Source: an uncultured Candidatus Saccharibacteria bacterium
GTDB taxonomy: Bacteria; Patescibacteriota; Saccharimonadia; CAILAD01; JADZBC01
Reading direction: 5' to 3'
Length of the DNA: 53,025 bases
Assembly: GCA_964413715.1 (NCBI GenBank)
Contig: CAYPSN010000002.1
Span: 66,850 to 119,874, forward strand
The translations under genes were made by a program, and so were the position numbers. Of the stretch, positions 22,732-52,904 are shown one piece after another (the first letter of the stretch is position 1; each line of letters begins with the position of its first letter). The notes below the pieces were generated by a model. The model was not told where the DNA came from. It saw only the letters and a list, made by a program, of their open reading frames with translations, and ran no database searches.

Positions 22732-22749
22732 ATTATAAGTTTTGAGCTT

Positions 22750-22772: not shown

Positions 22773-22782
22773 CGCTCAAGCC

Positions 22783-23498: not shown

Positions 23499-23527
23499 TA
23501 CTGCTTGTTATTCAAGCATAAGGAGAC

Positions 23528-35906: not shown

Positions 35907-35918
35907 TCACAATTGGAG

Positions 35919-35946
35919 AAGGCCCAGAGTCGTAACCCTGGGCCTT
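35919..35946 (+). terminator. Hairpin after pmbA
   Basis: AAGGCCCAG...CTGGGCCTT. Weak U tract. Confidence 0.45.
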
Positions 35947-36091
35947 AAACCCTCCTGCGATGCCGGTCTACAACCAACTCAGATAGCCGTCGCATCGGCT
36001 AGTACACTATCCCCCTGTACTGGGGTCACTGCCATTATGTTGCCTGGCTGCAGTGAGGTGATTCTTTCAAATCTGCCACGGGCCAAGGCCC

Positions 36092-36409: not shown

Positions 36410-36798
36410 CTTTGAATGCACATAGATACACTCAAAGACGAACACCACTCACATGCTTCACCCCACCGCAGCACTCATCTACATAAGTGCTCTGGTAGGG
36501 CCACCGAGGATTTCTCCTCGATGGTACTCACCCTCCCGCGATACCGACTAGCTTTTTTTCACTAGTCGACTTCTGTTGCCAGGCCGTCGCTACGACCCCG
36601 GAAACCCTGTTAGGGAGTCCCCACCAAGACCGGCAGATCCGGAGTGAGTCCGAAGAGGACTCGCACCTTCTCCACCGGCGGCGGGACTGGTCCGAAGACC
36701 GTTCCAATTTCCCGTGCGTCGTCACCCGCAAGAACAAGCCAGGGATAACCCCGACTCACCCTTGGGGAACGGCCGCCCGGTGTGCGGTAGCACATCAT
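36410..36798 (-). ncRNA. Structured GC-rich non-coding segment immediately 3' of ssrA (tmRNA-related fragment?)
   Basis: No credible ORF. Many helices. 15-nt exact copy (36570-36584) of a tmRNA segment (36996-37010), flanked by a compensated helix (CGAC/GTCG versus CCGC/GCGG). Confidence 0.4.
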
Positions 36799-36799
36799 C

Positions 36800-37163
36800 G
36801 TGGAGCTGGAGGGAATCGAACCCTCGTCCACCAGGTAGCAAACTTACTCGCTACGACCATTCCTGGTTTTGAACTTTGCAGCAGTTCGAGGGCCAGGTCA
36901 CTTGTACTGTGCTTGCGCGCAGCCAGCTGCCAAGTCTTTCCTTGAAGTCACTGTACTTTCACAGTGTCAGCGGTCTATCCCTGCTGTCTTCTCCGCTTCT
37001 GTTGCCAGGCTGCGGTGAATCGGCCCCGAATCTAAGCTTTTTACGGCCCTTTTCGTAACCTTCGCTATCAGGCGGCGGTTATGAGTTTGCCCTGTTTTAC
37101 GAGTCTGAGCAACTCGGGTCGCAAGTAAGCTAGCTAGTCCCGATGTCGAAACCAGTCAGCCCC
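36800..37163 (-). ncRNA. ssrA: tmRNA (SsrA)
   Basis: 5' GGGGCUGACUGGUUUCGAC, 3' GGACGAGGGUUCGAUUCCCUCCAGCUCCA. Acceptor stem has a G3-U pair. Candidate tag frame GGC AAA CUC AUA ACC GCC GCC UGA UAG. Terminal CCA not fully encoded (CGA). Confidence 0.9.
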
Positions 37164-37172
37164 TAGGGCGCG

Positions 37173-37406
37173 TTACAGATAGCCAGCCAAGGTACGCGCA
37201 TCCTCGGCATCGTGGTGGTCCGACTGAGCGGCGGCACAGGCGTGCCCGGTCTCATGCCCGATGTCGAAACCAGCCTCGAAGATGAGGTACATCGTTTCCA
37301 TCAGCGACAGTCCCTGAGCTCGGGCTTCGACCAACAAGGCCTGAACCGTGAGCTCTACCGCTTCCTCGAAAACTTCTTCCGACATTTCCTCGGGGGTGAT
37401 GGACAT
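37173..37406 (-). CDS. Small acidic hypothetical protein (77 aa)
   Basis: ATG 37406 preceded by GGGAGGAAGG. Stop lies 9 nt before the tmRNA 5' end. Confidence 0.5.
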   Translation of the reverse strand: MSITPEEMSEEVFEEAVELTVQALLVEARAQGLSLMETMYLIFEAGFDIGHETGHACAAAQSDHHDAEDARTLAGYL

Positions 37407-37515
37407 AAGCCTTCCTCCCACGCTATGGAGTTGCGATTCAACTCCCCGGCGGGAGGCATCCGCCTCTTACCTCCGGCTGAGGAGTTGAATGGTGTGCGGC
37501 TTGTAAAAGTGCTCT

Positions 37516-37569
37516 GATAGTTTCGTCGTTTCCGACTCATCAGCCCGGACATACATCCGAGGACTATCC
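37516..37569 (-). ncRNA. Type III hammerhead ribozyme (HH6)
   Basis: Minus strand: GGAUAGU-C, stem I CUCGGA-UGUAUG-UCCGGG, CUGAUGA, stem II GUCG-GAAA-CGAC, GAAA, CUAUC. Cleavage predicted after C at 37562. Confidence 0.8.
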
Positions 37570-38733
37570 ACTCACGAACTCACAATGGAGCTCGCGAGCG
37601 ACCCTGGGGAGCCTCTGCAGGTTTTTTAAACCGTGCAAAGTCTACAACCCAGGGAAGGATTGTCCGGCTTTCACTCGATGGAGTGACCCGGAGCGGCTTA
37701 CCTTCGGCCGCGGCGTGATTGCGTTCGCTTCGGAGGGCACATTGGTTTTCAGGCCGCTGTGTCCGGGGTGACGAAACGCACTTTCAGCTAGTGAAGTTAA
37801 CCCCAGATCATTTGTTGATTTCCTACCGCTCTCGCGGTCGCGCGCCCATGTTGGGCCCAACACGTCGAGGTTTATACTCCTCGCAGGCTGATCTCTTCTC
37901 CTCTTCTGCCGTTATCCTCTTCCCGGGCTTGTTCCGGTCTACGCGGGCCTCCCCTGGGAGGCCAAAGGGCGACTTTACTAGCATCGAATCTGGGAGCTGC
38001 ACACTCGCGTGGCGCTCACCATGAGATGGGGGCTGGTAAAGCTAGGTCAGCTCTTTACCATGTCGGACTTCATACCACGCGTGCAAGCGTAGCCGACTTT
38101 GACCACAGATGCTGGTTTTACCCAGCTTAGGGGGATCCCCCCTGAGCACTCTGCAGCACCCTTATCCTCAGTCGTCTTCTTGGCATCCACCCCGGCCAGG
38201 GCTTCAACCATGCTGCGGGGCTATCCGCAGCTCCCTCTTTTCAGATTGGGCTTGCCAGGCCCAAACCTTGAGGTATGGCCCGACGGCGACTGATTTCCTG
38301 CCCTTTGCCTGAAGCACGTTTGTACGTGATCCGGACTCCCATGAATGGCGGGCAGGTGGCCTTGACTCTTAGCTTGCGGCTTCGAGCTGTACCACCATTC
38401 TTTTCCGATACACCTGCCTTGGCGGGCAGAATATACCACTAACTTCGTCAGCCCCGCCAAGGACCGCGATACTTGCTAAATGCGTTGGATCCTACCAAGA
38501 GGCACACTGTCACAAGCATGGAGATTTAAATGATGCCTATGGCATCACTCTGCAAAACACCGGGAGTAGGTGCGTTGCATATCATCCCTCGCGGGACTGT
38601 CAGGCTCTCCACAGCCAGGGTGCTGGGTGTTCTGTCTTGCTGTGATGTAAATATTTACAGAACCCAGCGCCTTGACTGTTGAGAACCTTTGACGATTATT
38701 TTGTAACGTTCTATGCAGTTGTTATCTGCACTG
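37570..38733 (-). ncRNA. Large (about 1.16 kb) GC-rich ORF-less structured RNA candidate
   Basis: Lies between promoter 38740-38768 and HH6. Only short Arg/Pro/Gly-rich ORFs. Numerous long helices, for example CCUUGGCGGG/CCCGCCAAGG (38413-38461) and CUGGGUUCUGU/ACAGAACACCCAG (38618-38663). Confidence 0.45.
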
Positions 38734-39393: not shown

Positions 39394-40155
39394 TTATTTT
39401 TTATCCTTAGTCCACGCTAGTTCAAATAGCTGCCTGAGAGCTCCTACGATTTCCTTACTCTCAATAACGATGCCTGCTGAAGATTTACCTTCGCTTCCAT
39501 AAGAAATCAGGAGAGCCCTGTCCTCGTACAAGTTGATGTCTGCCTGAACAGGGCTATTGAGGCGCATTGTTTCCCTCAATAAGCCTTTATCTGACGGCAC
39601 TTCATCCTTAAATGAGTATATAAGTTTACTAGATAGTCTTTTCTTTAAACGATTTTTAGGGCTAGTTTTTTCTATGTCAGGCACAAGACGAGTCACTTCA
39701 TCGTAATTGCTCATAGCGTATATCGTAGAGCCCACTCGAGCTTTTCTCCGAGTGTCCGAGGTGGTACTATTGATGCCCTCAAGGCCTTTGTAAAAACGAA
39801 CCACGGGAGCCTCTCCAGCAGAACCATGCTCCTGCTGCTTCAAACTCGGCATCAGGTTCTTCAGCTCGCTCTTCTTCGTTTCAATACTCGACTTTTGGCT
39901 GTCCAAGTAACGTTCGAGTGCCTCGGGTGGTTCGGCTACGAAAACAGTTTTTTTACCTTCTGTAGACTGGCTTACTAATCCCATTTCGGCTAGTTCATCT
40001 AGTATTACGTAAGTGGTAGCACGGTTAACCTCGGACTGCTGTGCGATCTTTTGTGCACTAGCTGAACCTAGAAAAAGCGCGGCCACGTACACACGTGCCT
40101 GCTTGTCGGCCAGGCCTACAGATTGTAATTTAGCTGCGAGTTCAATAATTTGCAT
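39394..40155 (-). CDS. TrmB-family transcriptional regulator (paralog 1)
   Basis: N-terminal wHTH LGLADKQARVYVAALFLGSASAQKIAQQSEVNRATTYVILDELAEMGLV, a coiled-coil linker and a C-terminal domain. Start moved to MQIIEL (40155). Confidence 0.8.
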   Translation of the reverse strand: MQIIELAAKLQSVGLADKQARVYVAALFLGSASAQKIAQQSEVNRATTYVILDELAEMGLVSQSTEGKKTVFVAEPPEALERYLDSQKSSIETKKSELKNLMPSLKQQEHGSAGEAPVVRFYKGLEGINSTTSDTRRKARVGSTIYAMSNYDEVTRLVPDIEKTSPKNRLKKRLSSKLIYSFKDEVPSDKGLLRETMRLNSPVQADINLYEDRALLISYGSEGKSSAGIVIESKEIVGALRQLFELAWTKDKK

Positions 40156-40162
40156 GTGTTTA

Positions 40163-40191
40163 AATATACTACATTTGTCAAAATTTGTCAA
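40163..40191 (-). promoter_or_regulatory. Promoter of TrmB paralog 1 (apparently leaderless)
   Basis: TTGACA (40191-40186), 17-nt spacer, TATATT (40168-40163), then 7 nt to ATG 40155. Second TGTCAA copy at 40176-40181. Confidence 0.55.
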
Positions 40192-40266
40192 CAATATATC
40201 AATTTAACCTGTACAAATACGTAATAATGTTGTAGAATAAGTTGTCTCTACCGAAAGGGGACTTCC

Positions 40267-42156: not shown

Positions 42157-42936
42157 TTATTTTCTAGACTTGCCGCTACCAGCGTTCGCGCTTGCAACTC
42201 CTGTTTTTACCAATGTAAAAATCTGCTTCATTGCCTCGGCTATCTGTGGGCTCTCTATAATCGTACCGATAACTTCTTCGCCGTATGAAATCAGTGCGGT
42301 TTTGTTGCCATACACATATAGGTTCACAGGCGCCGTAAAGGCTTCGCGCGGCGCCCAGGCCATGTCTCGGAGCATTGCTTTGTCATGTTCACGACCGTAG
42401 CGGATATTATCTTCTTCAGCCGGTTCTATACCGTGCGCTTTTATACCCAGTTTGGCCCGCTGCTCCATGTGCTTGTACAAATCTTTGCCCAACACGTTAA
42501 AGTCAGCATCCGAGCGGATAAAGTAAATGTCTTTACCCGTCCTACGCTGGTCTTCGTACATCTTTATAATCCCTTCTTTACCCTGGAAGAAGCGCACGCC
42601 AGGCTGATGCTGATAGGTGTAGAAGTAATTCAGTAGCTGCGGCATGCTGTCTCGCACCAGTTTTTCGGTAGCAAGAATCTCCTTACGTTTTTCTTCGATA
42701 AGTCGCTCTAAATTTGTGGGGTTGGCGGGATGATAACTCAGCTTTTTGCCAGATTCATCCTTCTCAACAAGACCTAGTGCGCACAACTTGTCGAGAATCA
42801 TATAACAATTTGTACGTGTTTCACCAATCTTTTCAGCCAACTCTGGGGGTGTTAAATCACCAAACTTTATAAGCGTAATATATGCTTTTGCCTGGCTTTT
42901 GGTTAAGCCTATTTGTTGTAAGAGTTCTGCATTCAT
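42157..42936 (-). CDS. TrmB-family transcriptional regulator (paralog 2)
   Basis: IGLTKSQAKAYITLIKFGDLTPPELAEKIGETRTNCYMILDKLCALGLV wHTH. 259 aa. Confidence 0.8.
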   Translation of the reverse strand: MNAELLQQIGLTKSQAKAYITLIKFGDLTPPELAEKIGETRTNCYMILDKLCALGLVEKDESGKKLSYHPANPTNLERLIEEKRKEILATEKLVRDSMPQLLNYFYTYQHQPGVRFFQGKEGIIKMYEDQRRTGKDIYFIRSDADFNVLGKDLYKHMEQRAKLGIKAHGIEPAEEDNIRYGREHDKAMLRDMAWAPREAFTAPVNLYVYGNKTALISYGEEVIGTIIESPQIAEAMKQIFTLVKTGVASANAGSGKSRK

Positions 42937-42942
42937 GCTTCA

Positions 42943-42984
42943 ATTCTACTCTCTATATTCATTTTTGTCAAGCGTATTTTGACA
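42943..42984 (-). promoter_or_regulatory. Promoter of TrmB paralog 2 (leaderless) within a TGTCAA-N7-TTGACA palindrome
   Basis: TTGACA (42971-42966), 17-nt spacer, TAGAAT (42948-42943), then 6 nt to ATG 42936. Palindrome spans 42966-42984. Confidence 0.6.
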
Positions 42985-43033
42985 TAAATGTGTTAATTTT
43001 CTATCTGTAAGGTAAGTATTTGTTTATTTTATA

Positions 43034-43062
43034 TTGACTATTTAATGCTTTTATTATATACT
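43034..43062 (+). promoter_or_regulatory. Strong sigma70 promoter of the hammerhead-punctuated operon
   Basis: TTGACT 43034-43039, 17-nt spacer, TATACT 43057-43062. GC content jumps immediately downstream. Confidence 0.65.
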
Positions 43063-43119
43063 TCCCCAGGCTCAAGCAACCCCGCTAGAGCCAGCACCTC
43101 GACACGCCTAGGAGGCGAC

Positions 43120-43272
43120 ATGCACGACGATCAAGAGTGGTTCGACAACCGGGACCTCCTCCCCCGCGGAATCATCCTCGGAGTGAGGCCGAAGCCCACG
43201 AACACGCAAAGCAACACGCTGAGCGACGCACTCGAAGACCTGCTGGAGCGGCGCTTCCTGCGCCGACTCTGA
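43120..43272 (+). CDS. Small hypothetical protein (50 aa), first ORF of the operon
   Basis: ATG 43120 follows GGAGG by 5 nt. Sequence MHDDQEWFDNRDLLPRG... Confidence 0.45.
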   Translation: MHDDQEWFDNRDLLPRGIILGVRPKPTNTQSNTLSDALEDLLERRFLRRL

Positions 43273-43316
43273 CGAGGCAACAAGGTAAACGGGGCGGTAC
43301 CTACAAACCCGCCCCC

Positions 43317-43373
43317 CTGACTCGGAGAGTAACGCGCTCTCCCTGACGATGACCGCGCACGGTCGAAAGTCAG
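43317..43373 (+). ncRNA. Type III hammerhead ribozyme (HH1) preceded by a hairpin
   Basis: CUGACU-C (cleavage after 43323), stem I GGAGAG-UAACGCG-CUCUCC, CUGACGA, one extra U, stem II GACCG-CGCA-CGGUC, GAAA, GUCAG. Hairpin GGGGCGG/CCGCCCC at 43291-43315. Confidence 0.8.
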
Positions 43374-43397
43374 CCGCACCTTGAACCAAGGAGAACA

Positions 43398-44003
43398 ATG
43401 AGCACCCCAGCCCTACTGAAAGTCGTCCTGACGGGCGGTCCCTGCGCCGGAAAGACCACGGTCTTCCGCCGCATCGAGCAAGAGTACGGACACCTGGTAA
43501 CGCTGGTGCCCGAAGTAGCCACCATGCTGCTCTCGAGCGGCTACCCCATGCCCGGACGCGACCTCGACTGGTCGCCCGGCTGGCGAGACAGCTTCCAGCG
43601 AGCCATCGCCACGGTCCAGGAAGAGGTAGAGGCGGCCTACGAAATGCGAGCTAAGGAGCGAGGTCACCGCCTCCTCCTGACCGACCGAGGCCTGATGGAC
43701 GGAGCGGCCTACTACGACAGCCGAGCTGAGTTCCTGAGCGCAACCGGAATCGACCATGGCACTGCCCTGGCTCGATACCAGGCGGTCATCCACCTCGAAT
43801 CCGTCGCCATCGCTCAGCCGGAGCTCTACTCGAAGGGCAACAACCCCTTCCGCTTCGAGACACTTGAGGAGGCCATCCCTCTCGAGGCCAAAACCCGAAG
43901 CGCTTGGGCTGGCCACCCACAGCACACCATCCTGGAGGGCGCCGACCTCGACTACAAGGTTAGCGGTACGCTCAGGGTGCTCGCGGCCTACCTGCAGGCA
44001 TGA
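43398..44003 (+). CDS. P-loop NTPase/kinase-like protein (AAA_28/NadR-kinase-like)
   Basis: Walker A GGPCAGKTT. Roughly 200-aa single-domain P-loop protein. RBS AAGGAG. Confidence 0.65.
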   Translation: MSTPALLKVVLTGGPCAGKTTVFRRIEQEYGHLVTLVPEVATMLLSSGYPMPGRDLDWSPGWRDSFQRAIATVQEEVEAAYEMRAKERGHRLLLTDRGLMDGAAYYDSRAEFLSATGIDHGTALARYQAVIHLESVAIAQPELYSKGNNPFRFETLEEAIPLEAKTRSAWAGHPQHTILEGADLDYKVSGTLRVLAAYLQA

Positions 44004-44041
44004 GCAGTGCAAGGTTCCGGGAGGTCCTTTAAAAACCTCCC

Positions 44042-44094
44042 CTGACTCGCGGAGTGAGTGCTCCGCCTGACGAGCCGGAAACGGCGAAAGTCAG
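44042..44094 (+). ncRNA. Type III hammerhead ribozyme (HH2) preceded by a hairpin
   Basis: CUGACU-C (cleavage after 44048), stem I GCGGAG-UGAGUG-CUCCGC, CUGACGA, stem II GCCG-GAAA-CGGC, GAAA, GUCAG. Hairpin GGGAGGU/ACCUCCC at 44019-44041. Confidence 0.85.
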
Positions 44095-44117
44095 TCCGCA
44101 CCTTGAAGGAGGCTTAC

Positions 44118-44696
44118 ATGCCCACTGAACCGAACAACCCTATCGACGAGATCTTCATCTCGGTCGATATCGAGTGCGACGGGGACATCCCCGGCGACTA
44201 CTCGATGCTCAGCATCGGGGCCACTACCCTCGGCAACAGGTACGATCGCGACTTCTACGTCGAACTCCGGCCCATGACCGAACGGTACAACCCCGACAGC
44301 CTGGCAGTAGCCAGCCTGGACCGCACTCGTCTGCTCCGCGAGGGAGTGCCAGCTCAGGTAGCGATGGCTCGGTTTGCAGCCTGGATCGAGGAAGTCCGCG
44401 GACTCCATGGAGACGCCAAAGCGGTGTGTGTCACTCTCAGCGAGTGGGATAACGGCTGGCTCTACTGGTACTTCGTCCACTTCCTGGGCCAAAAGCCCCT
44501 CGGCTTCACCGGCATCGACATCAAGAGCTACTTCATGGGCAAGCATGACCTGAAGGAGTTCGCGGGCACACCCCGAACCGAGATGCTGAAGCACTACCCG
44601 AGTGAGATCGAGCACACGCACAACGCGCTCGACGACGCCCGGGAGCAAGCCGAGATCTTCTGGGCAATGTACCGAGCCCAGCCTCCACAGGCCTAA
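44118..44696 (+). CDS. DEDDh 3'-5' exonuclease (DnaQ-like fold)
   Basis: ExoI SVDIECDG, ExoIII HNALDDAREQA. ATG 44118 after GAAGGAGG. Confidence 0.75.
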   Translation: MPTEPNNPIDEIFISVDIECDGDIPGDYSMLSIGATTLGNRYDRDFYVELRPMTERYNPDSLAVASLDRTRLLREGVPAQVAMARFAAWIEEVRGLHGDAKAVCVTLSEWDNGWLYWYFVHFLGQKPLGFTGIDIKSYFMGKHDLKEFAGTPRTEMLKHYPSEIEHTHNALDDAREQAEIFWAMYRAQPPQA

Positions 44697-44738
44697 GAGA
44701 CACAGAGGTAACCGGGGTGGTACCTACAAACCCGCCCC

Positions 44739-44791
44739 CTGACTCGCGGAGTGAGTGCTCCGCCTGACGAGCCGGAAACGGCGAAAGTCAG
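44739..44791 (+). ncRNA. Type III hammerhead ribozyme (HH3) preceded by a hairpin
   Basis: Ribozyme sequence identical to HH2 (cleavage after 44745). Hairpin GGGGUGG/CCGCCCC at 44714-44738. Confidence 0.85.
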
Positions 44792-44816
44792 TCCGCACCT
44801 TGAACTAAGGAGACCG

Positions 44817-45119
44817 ATGAGAATCGTTCGTCAAGGATCTATCCCGCCCGACCGCAACATCCAGCGAGGAACTTGCAGGCACTGCGGCACAGTGGTGGAA
44901 GCCAACATAACCACTGAGTGCAACCGGCGTACAACGACCAGGGACATTTACACTGATTATGACCCGGATGGACGACCGCCCTACTACTACAGCAAGACTG
45001 TCACGACCGAATACTTTGAGACGGGTTGTCCAGTCTGCTCAAGGCCAATCTGTGTATCCTCGAGGGAAATCTCGAGTACCCATCGGCCGGATGCACCAAA
45101 AGAAAAGTGGAGCATGTAG
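44817..45119 (+). CDS. Small zinc-ribbon-like protein (100 aa)
   Basis: CRHC...CPVC cysteine pairs. ATG 44817 after AAGGAG. Confidence 0.5.
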   Translation: MRIVRQGSIPPDRNIQRGTCRHCGTVVEANITTECNRRTTTRDIYTDYDPDGRPPYYYSKTVTTEYFETGCPVCSRPICVSSREISSTHRPDAPKEKWSM

Positions 45120-45161
45120 GTAGGCGCACAAGGTTCCGGGAGGTCCTTTCAAAACCTCCCC

Positions 45162-45216
45162 CGACTCGGAGAGTAATGCGCTCTCCCTGACGATGACCGC
45201 GCACGGTCGAAAGTCG
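45162..45216 (+). ncRNA. Type III hammerhead ribozyme (HH4) preceded by a hairpin
   Basis: CGACU-C (cleavage after 45167), stem I GGAGAG-UAAUGCG-CUCUCC, CUGACGA, extra U, stem II GACCG-CGCA-CGGUC, GAAA, GUCG. Hairpin GGGAGGU/ACCUCCC at 45138-45160. Confidence 0.8.
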
Positions 45217-45247
45217 GTATACTGTATAATCTACGAAAAGGAGTTGC

Positions 45248-45883
45248 ATGACCGCACAAGTTATTACCATCGATGGAGGCGCTGGCGTAGGTGGCAGCAC
45301 CACGGCCGAAGCACTAAGTAAGGCACTCGGCTGCGAACACCTCAACGTCGGTGAAATCTACCGCGCCCTCACCTTCGAACTGGTTAGCCTCGGCTGGACG
45401 AAGAAGCAGATTATGAGCTCACCCATGCTGGCGGCCGAGCTGGCGGCCGGATTCAAGCTACAGATTGCTAACGGCAGCGTGGCTAGCGTGAATGGTCAAG
45501 ATTGCCAAGGCAAGCTACACGCAGCAGAAATCAGCAAGCTGGTTCCGACTGTTGCGGCCATTCCCGAGATGCGAGCTACCGCCAAGAAGGTAGAGAAGAA
45601 CTTCATTGCAACTCGGCCACTCAGCATCATCGAGGGTCGAGCGGGCGCCTGGAGTATCCCGCAAGCAGTGCTAAAAATCTGGCTGCATTGCGATCCAGAA
45701 ATCGCCGCCAAGCGGCGCGGCTGCACCGTAGCAGAGATCCTGGAGCGCAACCTAGCGGATGCTACACGCGAGCACTCGCCTATGATCAAGCACCCAGATG
45801 CAGTCGCCATCGACACGGGCAAGCTACTCCCGGCCGAGATTGTGCAGCGCATCACGCAGCTCTACCGCGAACTGGCAGAATGA
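45248..45883 (+). CDS. Cytidylate kinase-like P-loop kinase
   Basis: ITIDGGAGVGGST...LNVGEIYRAL resembles the Cmk N-terminus (IDGPxxxGKST...DTGxxYRA). P-loop Lys replaced (GVGGST). TATAAT at 45225-45230 upstream. Confidence 0.6.
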   Translation: MTAQVITIDGGAGVGGSTTAEALSKALGCEHLNVGEIYRALTFELVSLGWTKKQIMSSPMLAAELAAGFKLQIANGSVASVNGQDCQGKLHAAEISKLVPTVAAIPEMRATAKKVEKNFIATRPLSIIEGRAGAWSIPQAVLKIWLHCDPEIAAKRRGCTVAEILERNLADATREHSPMIKHPDAVAIDTGKLLPAEIVQRITQLYRELAE

Positions 45884-45927
45884 CGCGGACAGCTAGGTTC
45901 CTGGGGAGTCCTACCAAAACTCTCCCC

Positions 45928-45977
45928 CGATTCAGCAGATTATGTCTGCTCTGATGAGCCAAGCATGGCGAAAATCG
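45928..45977 (+). ncRNA. Type III hammerhead ribozyme (HH5) preceded by a hairpin
   Basis: CGAUU-C (cleavage after 45933), stem I AGCAGA-UUAUG-UCUGCU, CUGAUGA, stem II GCCA-AGCA-UGGC, GAAA, AUCG. Hairpin GGGGAGU/ACUCUCC at 45903-45925. Confidence 0.85.
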
Positions 45978-45995
45978 GTTATAGTTAGGAGAATA

Positions 45996-46520
45996 ATGAA
46001 CGAAGTTATCGAAATTGAACGCAAGTGGGTCCTCGATGGGCTACCTGAGGGGATCGTTCCGATAAAAAGCCATGAAATCGAACAGGCATACCTAGATGTT
46101 CGTGGTCTACGTTTGCGTAAAAAAGATGAGGGATACTTAATAACCTACAAGAGCAAGGGCGACTTAGCCCGCAGTGAGTGGGAGCAAGAGATTCCCGCTT
46201 GGACTTATGATGGGCTCAAAGCAGAAGCACGTGCGGTACTTCATAAAACTCGTCACGTCTACAATGGCGGCGAGGTGGCCCTAGAGCTCGATGAATACCA
46301 TGGCGAACTCGAAGGACTCTACACAATCGAAGCCGAATGGGCACTGGAAATCCCTAGCACACTCACCCTGAAAGCAAGACAAGAGCTGATTCAAGATGCC
46401 GAGAAGGCTGCCAAAAGCTACATTCTGCCCTATCAGTTCTCTAACGCTCACGAGGTCACAGGCCTTAAAGCTTATAGCAACCGCTCATTGGCAGTTCACG
46501 GCCTACCGAAGCCTAACTAA
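45996..46520 (+). CDS. CYTH-domain (triphosphate tunnel metalloenzyme) protein
   Basis: N-terminal EIERKW signature. ATG 45996 after AGGAGA. Backbone-like GC. Confidence 0.75.
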   Translation: MNEVIEIERKWVLDGLPEGIVPIKSHEIEQAYLDVRGLRLRKKDEGYLITYKSKGDLARSEWEQEIPAWTYDGLKAEARAVLHKTRHVYNGGEVALELDEYHGELEGLYTIEAEWALEIPSTLTLKARQELIQDAEKAAKSYILPYQFSNAHEVTGLKAYSNRSLAVHGLPKPN

Positions 46521-47569
46521 CCAAGTTCCTTCTTGAACTTCTCGACTAGTTCAACTGGAGCAGGGTCGATCTCGTTTAAAATGCCCATATATGCCGAAAC
46601 GTAGTCACCGAGCATAATTGTGCTAAGTAGCTGCTGAATGTGTGTGTTTCCTACTACTTCTACTTCGACAGGCTCGTAGCCGTGCTTAGCCAGCACTTGG
46701 CGCGTCACAACAAATCGTTTTTTTATACGTTCGCCATCGAGACTAGAATGAAGTTCCACCACCTGAGCATGCTTGTTTTCAGGAAACAGCCAACCTTGCA
46801 TTTCGTTATGATTCAGCTCAGGAAATACATTAGCGCTCGCCATTTGCTTGGCGTTTTCGTTAATATCAATCTTCCATTTATACGCCGCCGATGCCAACGT
46901 GGGGCCAGCATATATAATAGCGCCTTTGCCATGCAGTTGCTTAGCAATCTTTCGCGCCACAGAATCATCTGGTGCATCTAGATTCCACTGGGCCTTTTGT
47001 GTATCCAAATAGTCTGCTACATTTTGCAGCTCACGGCGCATGTCAACTTTGGAAGTTAAGCCAAGGTTTTCTAAAATGCATATTAACGCCTTAATGTCGG
47101 CGAAGACTCCTAGTCGAGGCTGAGAATAATGCTCGAGTTCAATATCTAAAAGCACTCTGTTTTTGGCCGACTTTTCGAGCAAGCCTCCACTCGACATAGT
47201 AATCACTTGTGAGTTATTGCGCTGTGCATCCTTTAGGCAACTTAGCGCCTCTTCTGTGTTACCTGAAGCGCTCGAAACTATTACAAGAGTTCGGTCATTC
47301 ACATAACCTGGCAAGCTATAGCCACGCACGACTTCAAGAGGAACAAGTAACTGCTCATTCAGCCAATTCTTCACAATCATGCCAGCCAAAGCTGAGCCGC
47401 CCATACCGGCAAAAATTATGTTGTGCACGCCTAATCCAAGCTCGGTACTGAGTTTGCCTCGCATGCTGTCAGCAAAGTTCAGTCGTAACTGTGCCGGTTG
47501 TGCGTCAATCGCATCGAAGATGTGGTGTTTGTCATATTTAGCTCGTTCGTCAGCCTTTACCATAACCAT
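46517..47569 (-). CDS. Bifunctional phosphoglucose/phosphomannose isomerase family (SIS domain)
   Basis: FAGMGGSALAG, VIVSSASGNTEE SIS motifs. Start moved to MVMVKADE (47569). Confidence 0.75.
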   Translation of the reverse strand: MVMVKADERAKYDKHHIFDAIDAQPAQLRLNFADSMRGKLSTELGLGVHNIIFAGMGGSALAGMIVKNWLNEQLLVPLEVVRGYSLPGYVNDRTLVIVSSASGNTEEALSCLKDAQRNNSQVITMSSGGLLEKSAKNRVLLDIELEHYSQPRLGVFADIKALICILENLGLTSKVDMRRELQNVADYLDTQKAQWNLDAPDDSVARKIAKQLHGKGAIIYAGPTLASAAYKWKIDINENAKQMASANVFPELNHNEMQGWLFPENKHAQVVELHSSLDGERIKKRFVVTRQVLAKHGYEPVEVEVVGNTHIQQLLSTIMLGDYVSAYMGILNEIDPAPVELVEKFKKELG

Positions 47570-47619
47570 ATTATACACGGTGTGTTTACTCCTGTCCGCC
47601 GTCAGATTATAATAAGTCA

Positions 47620-48480
47620 ATGAGCCCCGGCAGACCAGAAACTCAACCAAGAAACGAAACTCCTGACGCCAAGATGCAGGGCAGTGAGAAGATAGACCTT
47701 CTTCCTGGGCTAGAGGAACAAAGTCCAGAGGAGTTTGAATGGGCTGTGAGCGACTATTTTAAGGACGTGCAATCGGCAAGACAGCGTGCTATTGAAGAAA
47801 GACACCCAAACCCTTCTGCCGCTGCTAAAGAATTCGTATATAAAAAACATGTAGAGGGTGCTGAGTTCAAAGAACTAGGCAAGCTCTGTGAGATCCTTTT
47901 TCTTGCCCCCCTGGCAGCCGACATACAAGAACGCCTTGACCCTATCAATGATGAGTTAAGTAACCTAAATAACCGATATAGAGACAGAGAAAGTCGACCA
48001 CCAGAAGTTCAGCTCAGGATTGCAGAGCTTAAAAAGCTAAAGAAGCCATTATTAGATAGCATGATGCCCTTCAATCATTTACTTCGCGACTTTGTGATTG
48101 ATAACGGCGACCACATTTCTCACGAAAACCTTGAGAATTGGCTGAGTAAAGCAAATAACAATGTCCCCGGACCATTTAAGAAAATTTTATCTGGGTTCGC
48201 CGTGGAAGCAGCCTGTAACAGGTTTGTCATGCAAGGACTTGCGGGCGAAGATATCGCGTGTCGCAAAAGTACTATCGAAGAAGACAAGGCAGGTATTGAT
48301 ATGGTTATTATCTACCAAGGAAGAGAGATCAATGTAGATGTTAAGACTGGCGGCAATATTGCGGACGGACTAGGAAAAGTTAGCGAGCTAGACATCGAGA
48401 GAAATGAAGTAAGTGGTTTTGACATAAGCCCAAACGCGAGGATTGCTATAGCTAGACGTATACGTAATATGTTGACATAA
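47620..48480 (+). CDS. Hypothetical protein with a possible PD-(D/E)xK-like C-terminal motif
   Basis: 286-aa ORF (alternative start M19 at 47674). GIDMVIIYQGREINVDVK resembles D...(D/E)xK. Confidence 0.5.
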   Translation: MSPGRPETQPRNETPDAKMQGSEKIDLLPGLEEQSPEEFEWAVSDYFKDVQSARQRAIEERHPNPSAAAKEFVYKKHVEGAEFKELGKLCEILFLAPLAADIQERLDPINDELSNLNNRYRDRESRPPEVQLRIAELKKLKKPLLDSMMPFNHLLRDFVIDNGDHISHENLENWLSKANNNVPGPFKKILSGFAVEAACNRFVMQGLAGEDIACRKSTIEEDKAGIDMVIIYQGREINVDVKTGGNIADGLGKVSELDIERNEVSGFDISPNARIAIARRIRNMLT

Positions 48481-50799: not shown

Positions 50800-50854
50800 A
50801 CCTAGTGTACAAAAATCCCCCATTGAGCGTCAAGACCCAATTGATGGGCGTTTC

Positions 50855-50894
50855 TGTAATGAAAAGCCCGTCCCTAGATGTTAGGGACGGGCTT
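50855..50894 (-). terminator. Intrinsic terminator overlapping the stop of the SLOG-like gene
   Basis: AAGCCCGTCCCT-N7-AGGGACGGGCTT (50864-50894), followed on the minus strand by UUUUCAUUAC. Confidence 0.7.
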
Positions 50895-51356
50895 GTTGAG
50901 TACCGCCAACCAGTTGATGAGGATCTGCGACAGACGGCGCTCGGCCACTTTGCCAATGCCCGGGCTGCTGCTTTCACGACTACCTGCCACATTGAGTGTT
51001 AGGATGTCGTTCTCCACCAGCCAGCCTACCACCTCAACCGGGTCGCACTTGTGGAGCAGGTTCACTACGAGACACGGCTTGCCCTGTTCGTTGGCCACGT
51101 TACGAGTCAGCTTTGAGCCACCGCGCAGCGAACCACGAACAAGGATCAGCGTACCGTCGGACTCACACACATTCCTGCGTGTGCGCTGCCGGTAGCCCGA
51201 ACTCGGAGTCTCTTTGACAGAGTATTTGTCCGAAATCTGACCACGCTCGTTGTAGCGTCCCTTCGGCACCCAGCCGCCCGTTGGTATGCCCAGCTTGATG
51301 GCTGCATCCAGAGCCGCTTTGTCTACGCCGGTTTGAGCACCGCTAACGATCTTCAC
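50874..51356 (-). CDS. YpsA/'MoCo-carrier'-type SLOG-family protein
   Basis: IVSGAQTGVDKAALDAAIKLGIPTGGWVPKGR signature. GTG 51356 after AAGGGAGG. Overlaps the upstream ORF end by 14 nt. Confidence 0.65.
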   Translation of the reverse strand: MKIVSGAQTGVDKAALDAAIKLGIPTGGWVPKGRYNERGQISDKYSVKETPSSGYRQRTRRNVCESDGTLILVRGSLRGGSKLTRNVANEQGKPCLVVNLLHKCDPVEVVGWLVENDILTLNVAGSRESSSPGIGKVAERRLSQILINWLAVLNKPVPNI

Positions 51357-51939
51357 GGCGCCTCCCTTTGTAGAGCTGCATGTCGCCATCCTGGCCCAGC
51401 ACGTAGACTGGCAGCCCATCGTAGAACAACGAGGCCTTGGCCAACCCGACAATTACGTCGGGGTCGGGGTAGATTCTCGACCACCGAGTCGCCCTATTCT
51501 CAAGGACGAGTGGCCAGAACTCTCCCCAGTAGGCTTCCCCCTGATCCTCTTCCGCCAGCTCTTCCTCGAGCGGGTCTACGGACATGTCGTCCAAGCCTGA
51601 AAGTGCTTCGACATCGCAGTCGAACCCGGTGACACCACCTTCTTCGGCAATTCGCATCCTCAGATCGAAGAGCTCCGGGTCGTCGCCAACTACGACGGCG
51701 TAGACACGGCCTGCACCGCTCTGGATTCGTGAATCCAGGCGGCCGAACCACACACCGAACATGTCGAGCCACGACATGACACAGGCCTCGTGCGGCGCCA
51801 CCAGCTCGATGCCCTCCCCGCCGTGATCGACCGCGGGCAGAGTGACGACGGTTGGGCGCCGTTCCCGCAACTTCGCGCACAGAAACGCGAACTTCTTGAC
51901 TGGTACGTTGCCAATGACGACGATGATGTCGCGCATCAT
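51343..51939 (-). CDS. GC-rich hypothetical protein (about 198 aa)
   Basis: Start at tandem ATG ATG (51939 or 51936) after AAAGGAGGA. No motif recognised. Confidence 0.5.
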   Translation of the reverse strand: MMRDIIVVIGNVPVKKFAFLCAKLRERRPTVVTLPAVDHGGEGIELVAPHEACVMSWLDMFGVWFGRLDSRIQSGAGRVYAVVVGDDPELFDLRMRIAEEGGVTGFDCDVEALSGLDDMSVDPLEEELAEEDQGEAYWGEFWPLVLENRATRWSRIYPDPDVIVGLAKASLFYDGLPVYVLGQDGDMQLYKGRRREDR

Positions 51940-51987
51940 TCCTCCTTTGTAAAGAGCGTGAATTGGGCCTTCCAACTCAACGTGCAG

Positions 51988-52016
51988 ATTATACAAACTT
52001 TATGTATTTTTGTCAA
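51988..52016 (-). promoter_or_regulatory. Perfect-consensus sigma70 promoter for the GC-rich two-gene operon
   Basis: TTGACA (52016-52011), 17-nt spacer, TATAAT (51993-51988). Confidence 0.65.
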
Positions 52017-52052
52017 TAATATTTGTATAATTTGAAGATTTATGCTTTATTT

Positions 52053-52093
52053 TGTCAATATCTATTTTGACAAACGCTGGAATGTGCTACAAT
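52053..52093 (+). promoter_or_regulatory. Promoter of TrmB paralog 3 within a TGTCAA-N8-TTGACA palindrome
   Basis: Palindrome 52053-52072. TTGACA 52067-52072, extended -10 TGcTACAAT 52085-52093, then 6 nt to ATG 52100 (leaderless). Confidence 0.55.
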
Positions 52094-52099
52094 ATGGAT

Positions 52100-52837
52100 A
52101 TGGAAAATACCCTACACGAACTCGGCCTGTCAAAATCTCAGGCTCGCGCCTATATGATACTTATTGATAACGGAAGACTCGACCCTCTTTCGTTGGCCAA
52201 AAAAACTGGCGAGGCTAGAACGAACGCTTATATGATTATGGAGCGGCTAGCGGACTTGGGGCTTGCTGTGCGCGACGAAGTGAAGAAGAAGCGAATCTAT
52301 CGCCCATCAAGCCCGTTGGGACTCCAAAGATTGGCTGAAAGACAGAGAGCGAAAGCGCATGAGCAAGAAAGAAAAATTAAGCAAGCCATGCCAGATCTTC
52401 TCCGCTATTTTCATGAAAAGTACAGCCAACCTAGTGTTAGGTTTTTACAGGGCCATGATGGAATCAACCAAATTTACAAGGATCATTTGGCGCAAGATGG
52501 AGATATTTATGTATTTCGCACCCAAGAAGATTACAAGTACTACGGTGATGACCTAAATAGCTATTTGGAAGATAAGGCAAGAAAAGGAATAAAAACCGAA
52601 ATTATATCACCTCAATCCAAAATTGCGCTGCAAAACTTTAAAAACAACCCACTTGGACGAGAATTCACATGGGTACCAGAAGAAAGCTATACGGCTCCTG
52701 TCGAGATATCTATATATGGTAATAAAGCAGCCTTCACGTCATTTGGCGAGGAAGCAGTCGCTCTAATAGTGGAAAGTCCCCAAATCGCAAAAGCATTACG
52801 CGAGATTTTTCTTCTGGTTAAAACAAGGGGTATATAG
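52100..52837 (+). CDS. TrmB-family transcriptional regulator (paralog 3)
   Basis: LGLSKSQARAYMILIDNGRLDPLSLAKKTGEARTNAYMIMERLADLGLA wHTH. Start moved to MENTLHEL (52100). Confidence 0.8.
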   Translation: MENTLHELGLSKSQARAYMILIDNGRLDPLSLAKKTGEARTNAYMIMERLADLGLAVRDEVKKKRIYRPSSPLGLQRLAERQRAKAHEQERKIKQAMPDLLRYFHEKYSQPSVRFLQGHDGINQIYKDHLAQDGDIYVFRTQEDYKYYGDDLNSYLEDKARKGIKTEIISPQSKIALQNFKNNPLGREFTWVPEESYTAPVEISIYGNKAAFTSFGEEAVALIVESPQIAKALREIFLLVKTRGI

Positions 52838-52851: not shown

Positions 52852-52904
52852 GCAACTTTCGTCCTTTTGGACTCATCAGAATAACCCGACAGTTATTGAG
52901 TTGC
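52852..52904 (-). ncRNA. Type III hammerhead ribozyme (HH7) preceded by a UUCG-capped hairpin
   Basis: Minus strand: GCAACU-C (C at 52898), stem I AAUAAC-UGUCGG-GUUAUU, CUGAUGA, stem II GUCC-AAAA-GGAC, GAAA, GUUGC. A 10-bp hairpin CACCCCGGGC-UUCG-GCCUGGGGUG at 52905-52928 lies immediately 5' on that strand. Confidence 0.8.

What the first reader, a model, noticed from the sequence alone, without database searches (positions are those of the whole stretch)
43324..45933. ORF units flanked by same-strand hammerheads could be excised and circularised (retrozyme-like geometry)
Cleavage at consecutive ribozymes would release four unit-length RNAs: 43324-44048, 44049-44745, 44746-45167 and 45168-45933. 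Each would carry a 5'-OH and a 2',3'-cyclic phosphate, which are the ends required by RtcB-type ligases. In each unit the 3'-terminal stem III strand (CUGACU, CGACU or CGAUU) can pair with that unit's own 5'-proximal GAAA-GUCAG or GAAA-GUCG strand. A circle would therefore rebuild a complete hammerhead. This matches the architecture of eukaryotic retrozymes and viroid-like RNAs, but here each unit would encode a protein. The idea is speculative and directly testable.
Basis: inference. Interest (0 to 1): 0.65.

Follow-up and report, generated by a model that had tools for sequence, protein, structure and literature searches.

The report
Hammerhead-punctuated operon in a Saccharibacterium
Five real self-cleaving hammerhead ribozymes sit between the genes of one operon in an uncultured Saccharibacteria (TM7) chromosome and most likely cut a long transcript into single-gene mRNAs; the proposed circular RNAs are geometrically possible, could not be tested here, and are not favoured by the evidence.

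Summary
Five type III hammerheads lie on the + strand at 43317-43373, 44042-44094, 44739-44791, 45161-45217 and 45927-45978. The ribozymes are well supported: all core nucleotides are present, and across 31 distinct homologues 99% of pairs form and 14 of 16 pairs show changes on both sides. The window is core chromosome of a Saccharibacterium from activated sludge, not a phage.

The array has one promoter, no internal terminator and a divergent TrmB regulator. Homologous arrays with 1-5 hammerheads occur at the same site in related genomes. Each array hammerhead directly follows a covarying H-type pseudoknot. Its stem III 3' strand can also pair with the catalytic core.

Circularisation could not be tested, because no usable RNA data exist and RtcB could not be searched. 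Several lines argue against it as the purpose. Single hammerheads conserved at 3' UTRs cannot make circles. Stem III covaries within each ribozyme, not across units. Folding predicts the end-joining helix in 0.05-19% of molecules. Perreault et al. 2011 proposed circles for similar bacterial clusters and did not detect them. Best reading: a ribozyme-punctuated operon, a new variant of a known kind.

The parts
42157..42936 (-). Divergently transcribed TrmB-family regulator that flanks the array. It occupies the same position in related genomes.
   Evidence: Pfam TrmB 5.6e-13. The orthologue is 82-83% identical and next to the array in L003, L005 and L007. A TrmB gene also sits next to the L090 array. 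Its own promoter-like site is at 42971-42943.
43034..43062 (+). The only sigma-70-like promoter site upstream of the array (TTGACT-17-TATACT), in an AT-rich spacer.
   Evidence: The same promoter and leader sequence are conserved in L007.
43120..43272 (+). First cistron, 50 aa, with no family match. It lies upstream of the first hammerhead, so it cannot be part of a circle.
43283..43315 (+). Pseudoknot 1 (S1 AGGTA/TACCT, S2 GGGGCGG/CCGCCCC, A-rich loop 3), ending 1-2 nt before hammerhead 1.
   Evidence: Descriptor scans.
43317..43373 (+). Hammerhead 1, type III, with an extra U between A9 and G10.1. The cut falls after 43323.
   Evidence: It is 57/57 identical in L005 and has 1-nt differences in L003 and L007.
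43398..44003 (+). Unit 1 ORF: AAA_28 P-loop NTPase, 201 aa.
   Evidence: Pfam 5.6e-21. Homologues occur in the arrays of L003, L087 and L090.
44011..44041 (+). Pseudoknot 2 (AAGG/CCTT, GGGAGG/CCTCCC).
44042..44094 (+). Hammerhead 2, canonical type III. The cut falls after 44048.
   Evidence: Rfam Hammerhead_3 39.6 bits; model R1 72.3 bits.
44118..44696 (+). Unit 2 ORF: DEDD 3'-5' exonuclease, 192 aa.
   Evidence: Pfam RNase_T and Rv2179c-like, weak. PADLOC PDLC00753 'Effector exonuclease' 1.9e-46. PDB 7t2s 1.6e-24.
44706..44738 (+). Pseudoknot 3 (AGGTA/TACCT, GGGGTGG/CCGCCCC).
44739..44791 (+). Hammerhead 3, identical in sequence to hammerhead 2. The cut falls after 44745.
44817..45119 (+). 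Unit 3 ORF: 100 aa with CxxC...CxxC motifs and no family match.
45130..45160 (+). Pseudoknot 4 (AAGG/CCTT, GGGAGG/CCTCCC).
45161..45217 (+). Hammerhead 4, the U-insert subtype, with stem III CCGAC/GUCGG. The cut falls after 45167.
   Evidence: 34.2 bits; not used to build the model.
45248..45883 (+). Unit 4 ORF: cytidylate kinase-like, 211 aa.
   Evidence: Pfam Cytidylate_kin 1e-30. NCBIfam cmk scores 85 bits, below its cutoff of 135.
45894..45926 (+). Pseudoknot 5 (TAGG/CCTA, GGGGAG/CTCCCC).
45927..45978 (+). Hammerhead 5, with stem III CCGAU/AUCGG. The cut falls after 45933.
   Evidence: The orthologue in L003 (7877-7928) differs only in the loops and at N7.
45996..46520 (+). Last cistron: CYTH-domain protein, 174 aa. 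It follows the last hammerhead, so it cannot be circularised. It converges on the pgi gene (46517-47650, - strand).
   Evidence: Pfam CYTH 7.7e-9. PDB 3typ and 2fbl. The L003 homologue is 50% identical.

Best explanation
The region is a chromosomal operon of a Saccharibacterium. One promoter (43034-43062) faces away from a TrmB regulator gene, and six short cistrons are separated by five copies of a roughly 125-nt junction module. Each module runs: stop codon, H-type pseudoknot, type III hammerhead, short 5' UTR with a Shine-Dalgarno sequence.

As the long transcript is made, each hammerhead cuts itself 3' of C17. This turns the polycistronic RNA into single-gene mRNAs. Each upstream product ends in the pseudoknot plus CUGACUC with a 2',3'-cyclic phosphate, a structured 3' end that should resist 3' exonucleases. 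Each downstream product begins with a 5'-OH buried in the stem I and stem II hairpins.

After cleavage, the stem III 3' strand (GUCAG) can re-pair with the identical-looking core segment (CUGAC, positions C3 to N7). That would release the upstream product and make the cut effectively irreversible.

The likely benefit is independent stability and translation of each cistron, in the manner of a natural insulator or a ribozyme-defined 3' end.

Shown here: the ribozymes, their conservation and covariation, the pseudoknots, the operon layout and the synteny. Inferred: cleavage in vivo, the protective role of the ends and the post-cleavage refolding.
For: - The eight hammerheads are clearly distinct from background in the window.
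- Across 31 distinct homologues, 99% of cells pair, 14 of 16 pairs change on both sides, and the covariation score is 0.867. Shuffled controls give 0.207 and slid controls about 0.10.
- Orthologous hammerheads in relatives differ in loops or by compensatory changes.
- There is one promoter-like site upstream and no promoter-like or terminator-like site on the + strand within 43063-46520.
- Singleton hammerheads sit at the 3' ends of genes followed by a convergent gene (650, 52904). They follow a hairpin, and 52904 is conserved in L003, L004, L005 and L006, which fits a role in forming 3' ends.
- The pseudoknot abuts 18 hammerheads, out of 32 descriptor hits in 360 kb. In L005 and L007 it closes the last cistron without any hammerhead.
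- The alternative core pairing is predicted in all 18 array hammerheads scored. It has all five pairs in 17 and is as stable as or more stable than the active fold in 15. It is absent from the singletons with a different stem III.
- Perreault et al. 2011 showed that three comparable bacterial tandem arrangements cleave as predicted in vitro, and proposed processing into single-gene mRNAs.
Against: - No RNA data exist for this organism, so cleavage in vivo is not shown.
- RNA-run contigs for the homologous L090 array span three cleavage sites uncut. Their depth is very low and DNA carry-over is possible.
- The nearest-neighbour model puts the inactive alternative fold level with, or up to 2.9 kcal/mol below, the active fold even in the precursor. 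Cleavage could therefore be slow or gated.
- Two of the five ribozymes carry an extra U next to stem II, and activity of that subtype is assumed from its conservation.
- This reading does not explain why the arrays are GC 0.60-0.65 in genomes of about 0.48, or why gene order differs between genomes.
Confidence: 0.6

Rival explanations
1. After double cleavage, each unit's 3' end pairs with its own 5'-proximal GUCAG strand. The ends are then sealed by RtcB or by the hammerhead's own reverse reaction, giving protein-coding circular mRNAs, possibly as intermediates of retrozyme-like mobility.
For: - The geometry is real: the unit-closing helix has 5/5 Watson-Crick pairs in units 1 and 2, and 4/5 plus a mismatch or wobble in units 3 and 4.
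- The ends would have the chemistry RtcB needs (established knowledge).
- Partition-function folding gives the end-joining helix 13% and 19% occupancy in units 1 and 2.
- The alternative core pairing could protect a sealed circle from re-cleavage.
- Stem III is unusually uniform across array hammerheads while stems I and II vary freely.
- Gene order and phylogeny of the cassettes are incongruent between genomes.
Against: - Three of the eight hammerheads in the window are singletons that cannot give circles, and two of those are conserved in relatives.
- The first and last cistrons have the same junction design but only one flanking ribozyme.
- Stem III covaries within each ribozyme (103/105 Watson-Crick) and not across units (67/75). 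Seven of the eight units whose neighbouring ribozymes differ carry a wobble or mismatch.
- End-joining occupancy is 0.05% for unit 3 and 1.2% for unit 4, and the circular minimum-energy folds form 0 of 6 stem III pairs.
- No RtcB, reverse transcriptase or integrase is among about 40 window ORFs.
- No back-joint appears in the few RNA contigs available.
- Perreault et al. could not detect circular or spliced products for analogous clusters.
Confidence: 0.08
2. The junction modules act mainly at the DNA level. As conserved roughly 125-bp repeats, they mediate homologous recombination that shuffles, deletes or imports single-gene cassettes among Saccharibacteria. RNA cleavage is then a secondary or separate property.
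For: - The PGI-TrmB interval holds 5, 3, 1 and 1 hammerheads in the window, L003, L005 and L007.
- Junctions are about 98-100% identical between genomes whose flanking proteins are 82-84% identical, while cassette proteins are 42-50% identical.
- The window's AAA_28 protein is closer to that of the more distant L090 genome (60%) than to that of L003 (42%).
- Gene order differs between arrays.
- Hammerheads 2 and 3 and their flanks form an identical roughly 70-bp direct repeat.
- The arrays have an anomalous GC content in every genome.
Against: - The ribozyme helices show compensatory changes, which means selection on RNA pairing rather than on DNA identity.
- No recombinase lies nearby.
- No cassette-boundary deletion or insertion joints appear in four metagenomes that hold the locus.
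- The same gene families recur in all arrays, as expected for an inherited operon with rearrangements.
Confidence: 0.12
3. The hammerheads are conditional switches, not constitutive cutters. The active fold and the core-sequestered fold are balanced. Cleavage, and hence expression of the downstream cistron, is gated by translation of the upstream ORF (its stop codon lies about 7-25 nt before the pseudoknot), by the pseudoknot stacking on stem III, or by a factor.
For: - The two folds are within 0-2.9 kcal/mol in every array hammerhead, and the bistability is specific to the array subtype.
- The pseudoknot ends 0-2 nt from stem III, where coaxial stacking could tip the balance.
- The stop codons lie close to the pseudoknots.
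Against: This is purely predicted. Nearest-neighbour energies ignore hammerhead tertiary contacts. There are no kinetic or in vivo data, and no ligand-like conserved pocket is evident.
Confidence: 0.15
4. The motifs are inactive relics or chance matches, and the region is an ordinary operon.
For: Rfam's gathering threshold is not reached. Two copies carry an extra core-adjacent U.
Against: E-values run from 1e-7 to 1e-20 against noise below 10 bits. All core nucleotides are present in all five. There is extensive covariation and positional conservation across genomes.
Confidence: 0.02

Closest known systems
Clustered hammerhead ribozymes flanking single genes in bacterial (mostly prophage) DNA (Perreault et al. 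2011, PMC3088659; reviewed by de la Pena et al. 2017, PMC6155905)
   Same: Several same-strand hammerheads within a few kb, each in an intergenic spacer, flank individual small ORFs whose identity is not constant. The proposed role is processing of a long transcript into single-gene mRNAs. Circular products were considered there too.
   Different: - This array lies in core chromosome of a Saccharibacterium (polA, rpoD, dnaG, groEL nearby), with no integrase or phage genes.
- It is a syntenic, TrmB-adjacent operon conserved across several species.
- Every array ribozyme is fused to an upstream covarying pseudoknot.
- Every array ribozyme has a stem III that mimics its own catalytic core.
- Two full-text searches found no paper that mentions hammerheads together with Saccharibacteria or CPR bacteria.
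Retrozymes (plant and animal non-autonomous retroelements with hammerheads; Cervera et al. 2016, PMC4918200)
   Same: Type III hammerheads occur in direct repeats, unit RNAs of a few hundred nucleotides are released by double self-cleavage, and a circle would rebuild a hammerhead.
   Different: Retrozymes are eukaryotic and non-coding. They carry long terminal repeats, a primer-binding site and a polypurine tract, show target-site duplications, and depend on a retrotransposon reverse transcriptase. Here each unit is an mRNA with a Shine-Dalgarno sequence and an ORF, the repeat is a roughly 125-nt intergenic module, no reverse transcriptase was seen, and no circles have been shown.
Viroid-like circular RNAs and satellite RNAs with hammerheads
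   Same: The ribozyme class and the cleavage chemistry.
   Different: Those are RNA replicons without a DNA copy, usually with ribozymes in both polarities and rod-like or branched folds. This locus is genomic DNA present in many metagenomes. It has ribozymes on one strand only.
Engineered ribozyme insulators and circularisation cassettes (RiboJ-type insulators; twister-flanked 'Tornado' circles sealed by RtcB). Cited from my own knowledge.
   Same: A cis-cleaving ribozyme followed by a hairpin standardises the 5' end of each cistron. Ribozyme-generated 5'-OH and 2',3'-cyclic phosphate ends held together by a stem are RtcB substrates.
   Different: Those are synthetic designs. Here the end-joining stem is only 5-6 bp, and a local helix is predicted to out-compete it.

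Membership tests
Hammerhead ribozyme, type III | Conserved core: C3 U4 G5 A6 N7 G8 A9, G12 A13 A14, and H17 at the cleavage site | tested here: met
   All five array copies and the three singletons carry CUGANGA...GAAA and UC.
Hammerhead ribozyme, type III | Three helices around the core, with stems I and II loop-closed and stem III open, supported by covariation | tested here: met
   99% of 483 cells pair. 14 of 16 pairs change on both sides. The covariation score is 0.867, against 0.207 for shuffled and about 0.10 for slid controls.
Hammerhead ribozyme, type III | Core-adjacent pairs A15.1-U16.1 and N10.1-N11.1 intact, with no insertions in the core | tested here: inconclusive
   A15.1-U16.1 and G10.1-C11.1 are invariant. 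Hammerheads 43317 and 45161 have an extra U between A9 and G10.1. This subtype is conserved in L003, L005, L007, L090 and L093 with covarying stem II. From my own knowledge, such an extra A or U is tolerated in some viroid hammerheads. It was not assayed here.
Hammerhead ribozyme, type III | Reaches the Rfam RF00008 gathering score | tested here: not met
   39.6 bits against 48.5 for two copies, and three copies are not reported. This is a threshold of one model, not a biochemical criterion.
Hammerhead ribozyme, type III | Site-specific self-cleavage | not testable with these tools
   It needs in vitro transcription or end-specific RNA-seq. No RNA run holds the locus.
Clustered gene-flanking bacterial hammerheads (Perreault 2011) | Two or more same-strand hammerheads within a few kb that flank individual ORFs | tested here: met
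   Five within 2.7 kb, each in an intergenic spacer.
Clustered gene-flanking bacterial hammerheads (Perreault 2011) | Prophage or integrase context (frequent, not obligatory) | tested here: not met
   The window holds housekeeping genes and no integrase or phage structural gene among about 40 ORFs. There is no phage DNA match, and only hits below 35% identity to jumbo phages for the exonuclease. The pattern finds 0 viral contigs.
Retrozyme | Non-coding unit between the ribozymes | tested here: not met
   Each unit holds an ORF led by a Shine-Dalgarno sequence, and three of the four have Pfam domains.
Retrozyme | Hammerheads embedded in long terminal direct repeats, with a primer-binding site, a polypurine tract and target-site duplications | tested here: not met
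   The repeats are roughly 125-nt junction modules that are about 71% identical overall. There are no LTR-sized repeats. The primer-binding site and polypurine tract were not specifically searched.
Retrozyme | Accumulates as circular RNA and is copied by a reverse transcriptase | not testable with these tools
   There are no RNA reads. No reverse transcriptase is in the window, and the whole genome was not available.
Viroid-like or ribozyme-bearing RNA replicon | No DNA stage; ribozymes of both polarities or rolling-circle multimers | tested here: not met
   The locus is present in DNA metagenomes inside a chromosome. There are no ribozyme hits on the - strand of 43-46 kb.
Integron cassette array | IntI integrase plus attC recombination sites | tested here: not met
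   There is no integrase in the window. The junctions are ribozyme and pseudoknot modules, not attC-like imperfect palindromes.

The most novel reading that the evidence does not exclude
The units are released and sealed, by RtcB or by hammerhead self-ligation, into translatable circular mRNAs in a bacterium. The core-mimicking stem III would act as the switch that protects the circle from re-cleavage. The circles, or the conserved junctions, would also underlie the shuffling of cassettes between Saccharibacteria.
Probability: 0.08. Interest if true: 0.85.

Novelty: new variant of a known kind. Interest (0 to 1): 0.5.

Why it matters
The biological role of prokaryotic hammerheads is still described as an open question (PMC6155905). 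This locus offers an unusually clean case. It is a chromosomal, syntenic operon conserved across several species, in which every intergenic spacer is a pseudoknot-plus-hammerhead module. Natural variants with one to five modules exist, and singleton copies sit at plain 3' UTRs.

This suggests a concrete and testable logic for bacterial mRNA end formation without terminators or RNases: a 3' pseudoknot cap, a 5'-OH structured leader and product locking by core mimicry. That is relevant to CPR bacteria with minimal RNA-processing machinery. The module could also be useful as a natural insulator part. If circles were found, they would be the first ribozyme-made circular mRNAs known in bacteria.

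Tried and rejected
- Rfam at its gathering threshold found no ribozyme. E-value mode found two sub-threshold Hammerhead_3 hits, so I built my own model.
- The RNA run search for the array found nothing.
- RNA runs for the homologous L090 array gave only four short low-depth contigs. Three of them span cleavage sites and none has a joint, which is uninformative.
- The RNA run for the tmRNA/hammerhead region held only tmRNAs of other organisms at 90-95% identity.
- DNA contigs from four metagenomes showed no cassette-boundary joints. Unitigs simply break at the repeated ribozymes.
- Phage origin was rejected: 0 viral contigs with the pattern, no phage DNA match, and only remote jumbo-phage hits for the exonuclease.
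- The integron, retrozyme and viroid-like readings were rejected on their defining features.
- Literature searches for hammerhead plus Saccharibacteria or CPR, and for RtcB plus Saccharibacteria or CPR, gave nothing relevant. A search for the 'A9 and G10.1' insertion found nothing in the library.
- The MAFFT alignment of the pseudoknot region was not in structural register. The pseudoknot therefore rests on a descriptor scan and its specificity for ribozyme-adjacent sites, not on a formal pair count.
- RtcB could not be looked for in the whole genome. Only the window and flanks of 10 kb or less were accessible.
- The mobile-cassette idea was weakened by finding the same gene families in all arrays.

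Full report
**Observation**

The sequence at 43317-45978 contains five textbook type III hammerheads on the + strand. Each has, in order:
- a 5-nt stem III strand, then UC at the cleavage site;
- a hairpin (stem I);
- CUGANGA;
- a second hairpin (stem II);
- GAAA, then the complementary stem III strand.

A structural regex over both strands of the window returns eight such motifs:
- + 650;
- + 43317, 44042, 44739, 45161 and 45927;
- - 52904 and - 37568.

A covariance model built from five of them was run with filters off over the whole window. It returns exactly these eight and nothing else above 10 bits. The two that were not in the training set (43317 and 45161) score 32-34 bits, E about 1e-7.

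Rfam at its curated threshold reports only a tmRNA and a tRNA. In E-value mode it lists 44041-44095 and 44738-44792 as Hammerhead_3, at 39.6 bits against a gathering score of 48.5.

The predicted cuts fall after 43323, 44048, 44745, 45167 and 45933. Each unit carries one ORF with a Shine-Dalgarno sequence:

| Unit ORF | Product |
|---|---|
| 43398-44003 | AAA_28 NTPase |
| 44118-44696 | DEDD exonuclease |
| 44817-45119 | 100-aa CxxC protein |
| 45248-45883 | cytidylate kinase-like |

**Are the ribozymes real?**

The model was run over the window and related loci, and the 33 matches (31 distinct) were aligned. On that alignment:
- 99% of base-pair cells form standard pairs;
- 14 of 16 pairs show changes on both sides;
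- the covariation score is 0.867, against 0.207 for shuffled partners and about 0.10 for partners slid by 1-3 columns.

The only invariant pairs are A15.1-U16.1 and G10.1-C11.1, as expected for this ribozyme class. The alignment was fitted to the model, which leans towards the structure, but the margin is very large.

Orthologous copies in other genomes differ in loops or by compensatory changes. For example, the copy upstream of the tmRNA has stem II GUCGG/CGAC in the window and GUCAG/UGAC in L005.

Hammerheads 43317 and 45161 carry an extra U between A9 and G10.1. This subtype recurs with a covarying stem II in L003, L005, L007, L090 and L093, so it is conserved and not a lesion. Its activity was not tested.

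**Context**

The window is core chromosome of a Saccharibacterium (TM7). It holds:
- GroEL, 84-85% identical to Saccharimonadia MAGs;
- polA, rpoD, dnaG, a Mur ligase, dus, mgsA, a heliorhodopsin, tldD/pmbA and groES/EL;
- a tmRNA and tRNA-Ser.

It is found in activated-sludge and wastewater metagenomes. No integrase, reverse transcriptase, RtcB or phage gene is among the roughly 40 ORFs scanned.

The array region has a GC content of 0.56-0.61, against about 0.47 for its surroundings. An AT-rich spacer holds two divergent promoter-like sites. One serves a TrmB regulator gene (42157-42936, - strand). The other, at 43034-43062, serves the array. No further promoter-like or terminator-like site lies on the + strand before the array ends against the convergent pgi gene. 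The simplest reading is one primary transcript with six cistrons and five ribozymes.

**Relatives**

The interval between pgi and trmB is syntenic in the closest genomes but differs in content:

| Genome | Hammerheads | Cistrons |
|---|---|---|
| window | 5 | six |
| L003 | 3 | lipoprotein, small coiled-coil protein, AAA_28, CYTH |
| L005, L007 | 1 | lipoprotein, coiled-coil protein |

More distant Saccharibacteria have equivalent high-GC arrays of two to four hammerheads (L087, L090, L096, L098). These draw on the same gene families (AAA_28, DEDD exonuclease, CYTH, coiled-coil proteins) in a different order.

The junctions are far more conserved than the genes. The first junction is about 98-100% identical across four genomes. 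Flanking proteins are 82-84% identical, and cassette proteins only 42-50%. The window's AAA_28 protein is closer to that of the more distant L090 genome (60%) than to that of L003 (42%).

Exact pattern scans find this ribozyme subtype only in Saccharibacteria or unnamed MAGs:
- 11 and 8 stretches among one genome for each of 185,579 species;
- five metagenome contigs;
- no viral contig.

There is no phage DNA match.

1. **An upstream pseudoknot.** Every array hammerhead is preceded, at 0-2 nt, by an H-type pseudoknot. It consists of:
   - S1 (AAGG/CCTT, AGGTA/TACCT, TAGG/CCTA, CAGGT/ACCTG or CAAG/CTTG);
   - a short loop 1;
   - a GC-rich S2 of 6-7 bp that is fully compensated between copies (GGGAGG/CCTCCC, GGGGCG/CGCCCC, GAGGGG/CCCCTC, GGGGCAG/CTGCCCC);
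   - an A-rich loop 3.

   A generic descriptor gives 32 hits in 360 kb of both strands, and 18 of them abut a hammerhead. In the window, five of eight hits are the five junctions. In L007 and L005 the last cistron ends with this pseudoknot and no ribozyme. The pseudoknot therefore belongs to the 3' end of each cistron.

2. **A stem III that mimics the core.** In all array hammerheads the stem III 5' strand, C[U/C]GA[C/U], is nearly the same sequence as core positions C3-N7 (CUGAN). The stem III 3' strand can therefore pair with the core instead. This forms an inactive hairpin around stem II. The nearest-neighbour model rates it as stable as, or up to 2.9 kcal/mol more stable than, the active fold in most copies. 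The singleton hammerheads with a different stem III (650, 37568, 52904 and its orthologues) lack this option.

**Bearing on circularisation**

The geometric claim is true but follows automatically from tandem, paralogous type III hammerheads. Four lines of evidence argue that circle formation is not what shapes the locus.

- **Singletons and end cistrons.** Three of the eight hammerheads in the window are singletons. Two of them (650, 52904) sit after a gene whose downstream neighbour is convergent, and 52904 is conserved across five genomes. The first and last cistrons of the array have the same junction design but only one ribozyme.
- **Covariation is in cis.** Stem III covaries within each ribozyme (103 of 105 pairs Watson-Crick across six arrays). 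The unit-closing combinations have 67 of 75. Seven of the eight units whose neighbouring ribozymes differ carry a wobble or mismatch.
- **Folding predictions.** In partition-function folds of the released linear units, the end-joining helix is occupied 13%, 19%, 0.05% and 1.2% of the time (units 1-4). The core-sequestered alternative takes 81-99%. Circular minimum-energy folds form none of the six stem III pairs. These are model predictions that ignore tertiary contacts.
- **Literature.** Perreault et al. 2011 described clustered hammerheads flanking single genes. They showed in vitro cleavage of three such arrangements, considered spliced or circular products, and could not detect them. A 2017 review still calls the role of prokaryotic hammerheads open.

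Against this, the data do not exclude a minor circular fraction. The alternative fold would even protect a sealed circle.

The direct tests were not possible:
- No RNA run holds the locus.
- The few RNA-run contigs for L090 are too sparse.
- The tmRNA-region run held other organisms' tmRNAs.
- The genome beyond the window could not be searched for rtcB.

**Conclusion**

The best explanation is a ribozyme-punctuated operon. Pseudoknot-plus-hammerhead modules convert one transcript into single-gene mRNAs with defined, structured ends. Core mimicry by stem III releases the product and blocks religation, or perhaps gates cleavage.

This is a new variant of a known kind. The gene-flanking cluster arrangement and the circle idea date from 2011. 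The following appear undescribed in the literature I could search:
- the Saccharibacteria chromosomal setting;
- the conserved TrmB-adjacent operon;
- the coupled pseudoknot;
- the bistable stem III.

Two observations remain unexplained: the persistently high GC content of all arrays, and the incongruent relationships among the cassette genes.

Noticed in passing
window 43283-43315, 44011-44041, 44706-44738, 45130-45160, 45894-45926; L007 4118-4152 (-): A covarying H-type pseudoknot with an A-rich loop 3 ends 0-2 nt before every array hammerhead. In L007 and L005 it closes the last cistron without any ribozyme. It is probably a 3'-end cap for each processed mRNA.
   Followed up: partly
window 43343-43373, 44067-44094, 44764-44791, 45187-45217, 45951-45978: In array hammerheads the stem III 3' strand (GUCAG, GUCGG or AUCGG) can pair with the catalytic core C3-N7 (CUGAC or CUGAU). 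This gives an inactive hairpin predicted to be as stable as the active fold. Singleton hammerheads with other stem III sequences lack it.
   Followed up: partly
window 650-700 (+), 52852-52904 (-): Two singleton type III hammerheads sit just after a hairpin at the 3' end of a gene (ORF 217-591, and a Band_7 gene), each followed by a convergent gene. The Band_7 copy is conserved in L003, L004, L005 and L006, and the L006 copy has a long insertion in stem II.
   Followed up: partly
window 37516-37568 (-), 37173-37406 (-), 36798-37163 (-): A hammerhead lies about 110 nt upstream of a 77-aa ORF, which ends 9 nt before the tmRNA gene on the same strand. It is conserved in L005 (11998-12050) with compensatory changes. 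L005 has a second hammerhead-like motif at 12501-12554 with a CCGAUGA core. The tmRNA may be co-transcribed with a ribozyme-processed leader.
   Followed up: no
window 43060-46000; also 301-700, 9101-10000, 12901-13500, 22601-23500, 35901-38500, 50801-52000; L087 1001-2500; L090 6001-7500: The hammerhead arrays are GC 0.60-0.65 in genomes of about 0.47-0.50, in every species examined, although their proteins are only 30-60% identical. Several other short high-GC islands in the window were not examined. The cause is unexplained.
   Followed up: partly
window 44118-44696 with 43398-44003, 45248-45883 and 45996-46520: The exonuclease matches PADLOC 'Effector exonuclease' PDLC00753 (1.9e-46) and PDB 7t2s. 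With the AAA_28 NTPase, the CYTH protein and the CMP-kinase-like protein, the operon looks like nucleotide or nucleic-acid metabolism, or possibly defence. Its function is unknown.
   Followed up: partly
window 45218-45232; L003 about 7862-7876 (-): Directly after hammerhead 4 the 5' UTR reads TATACTGTATAAT, which resembles a -10 element but has no matching -35. L003 has TATAAT right after its last hammerhead. These may be weak internal promoters.
   Followed up: no
window 42167 > 46521: One low-depth contig in wastewater run X4 joins 42167 to 46521, skipping 4353 bp that hold TrmB and the whole array. Only 30 nt lie on the shorter side. It could be a strain without the locus or an unrelated genome.
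   Followed up: no
window 45652 > 45782: Contigs in runs X1 and X2 skip 129 bp (43 codons, in frame) inside the cytidylate-kinase-like gene, at a depth at or above that of the full form. This may be a shorter allele or a paralogue in the community.
   Followed up: no
window 30675-31451 (-): A heliorhodopsin gene (Pfam 1.7e-99) lies in this Saccharibacteria chromosome segment.
   Followed up: no
window 39394-40194 (-), 42157-42936 (-), 52052-52837 (+): Three TrmB-family regulator paralogues lie within 13 kb. Two of them are next to hammerhead-bearing transcripts.
   Followed up: no
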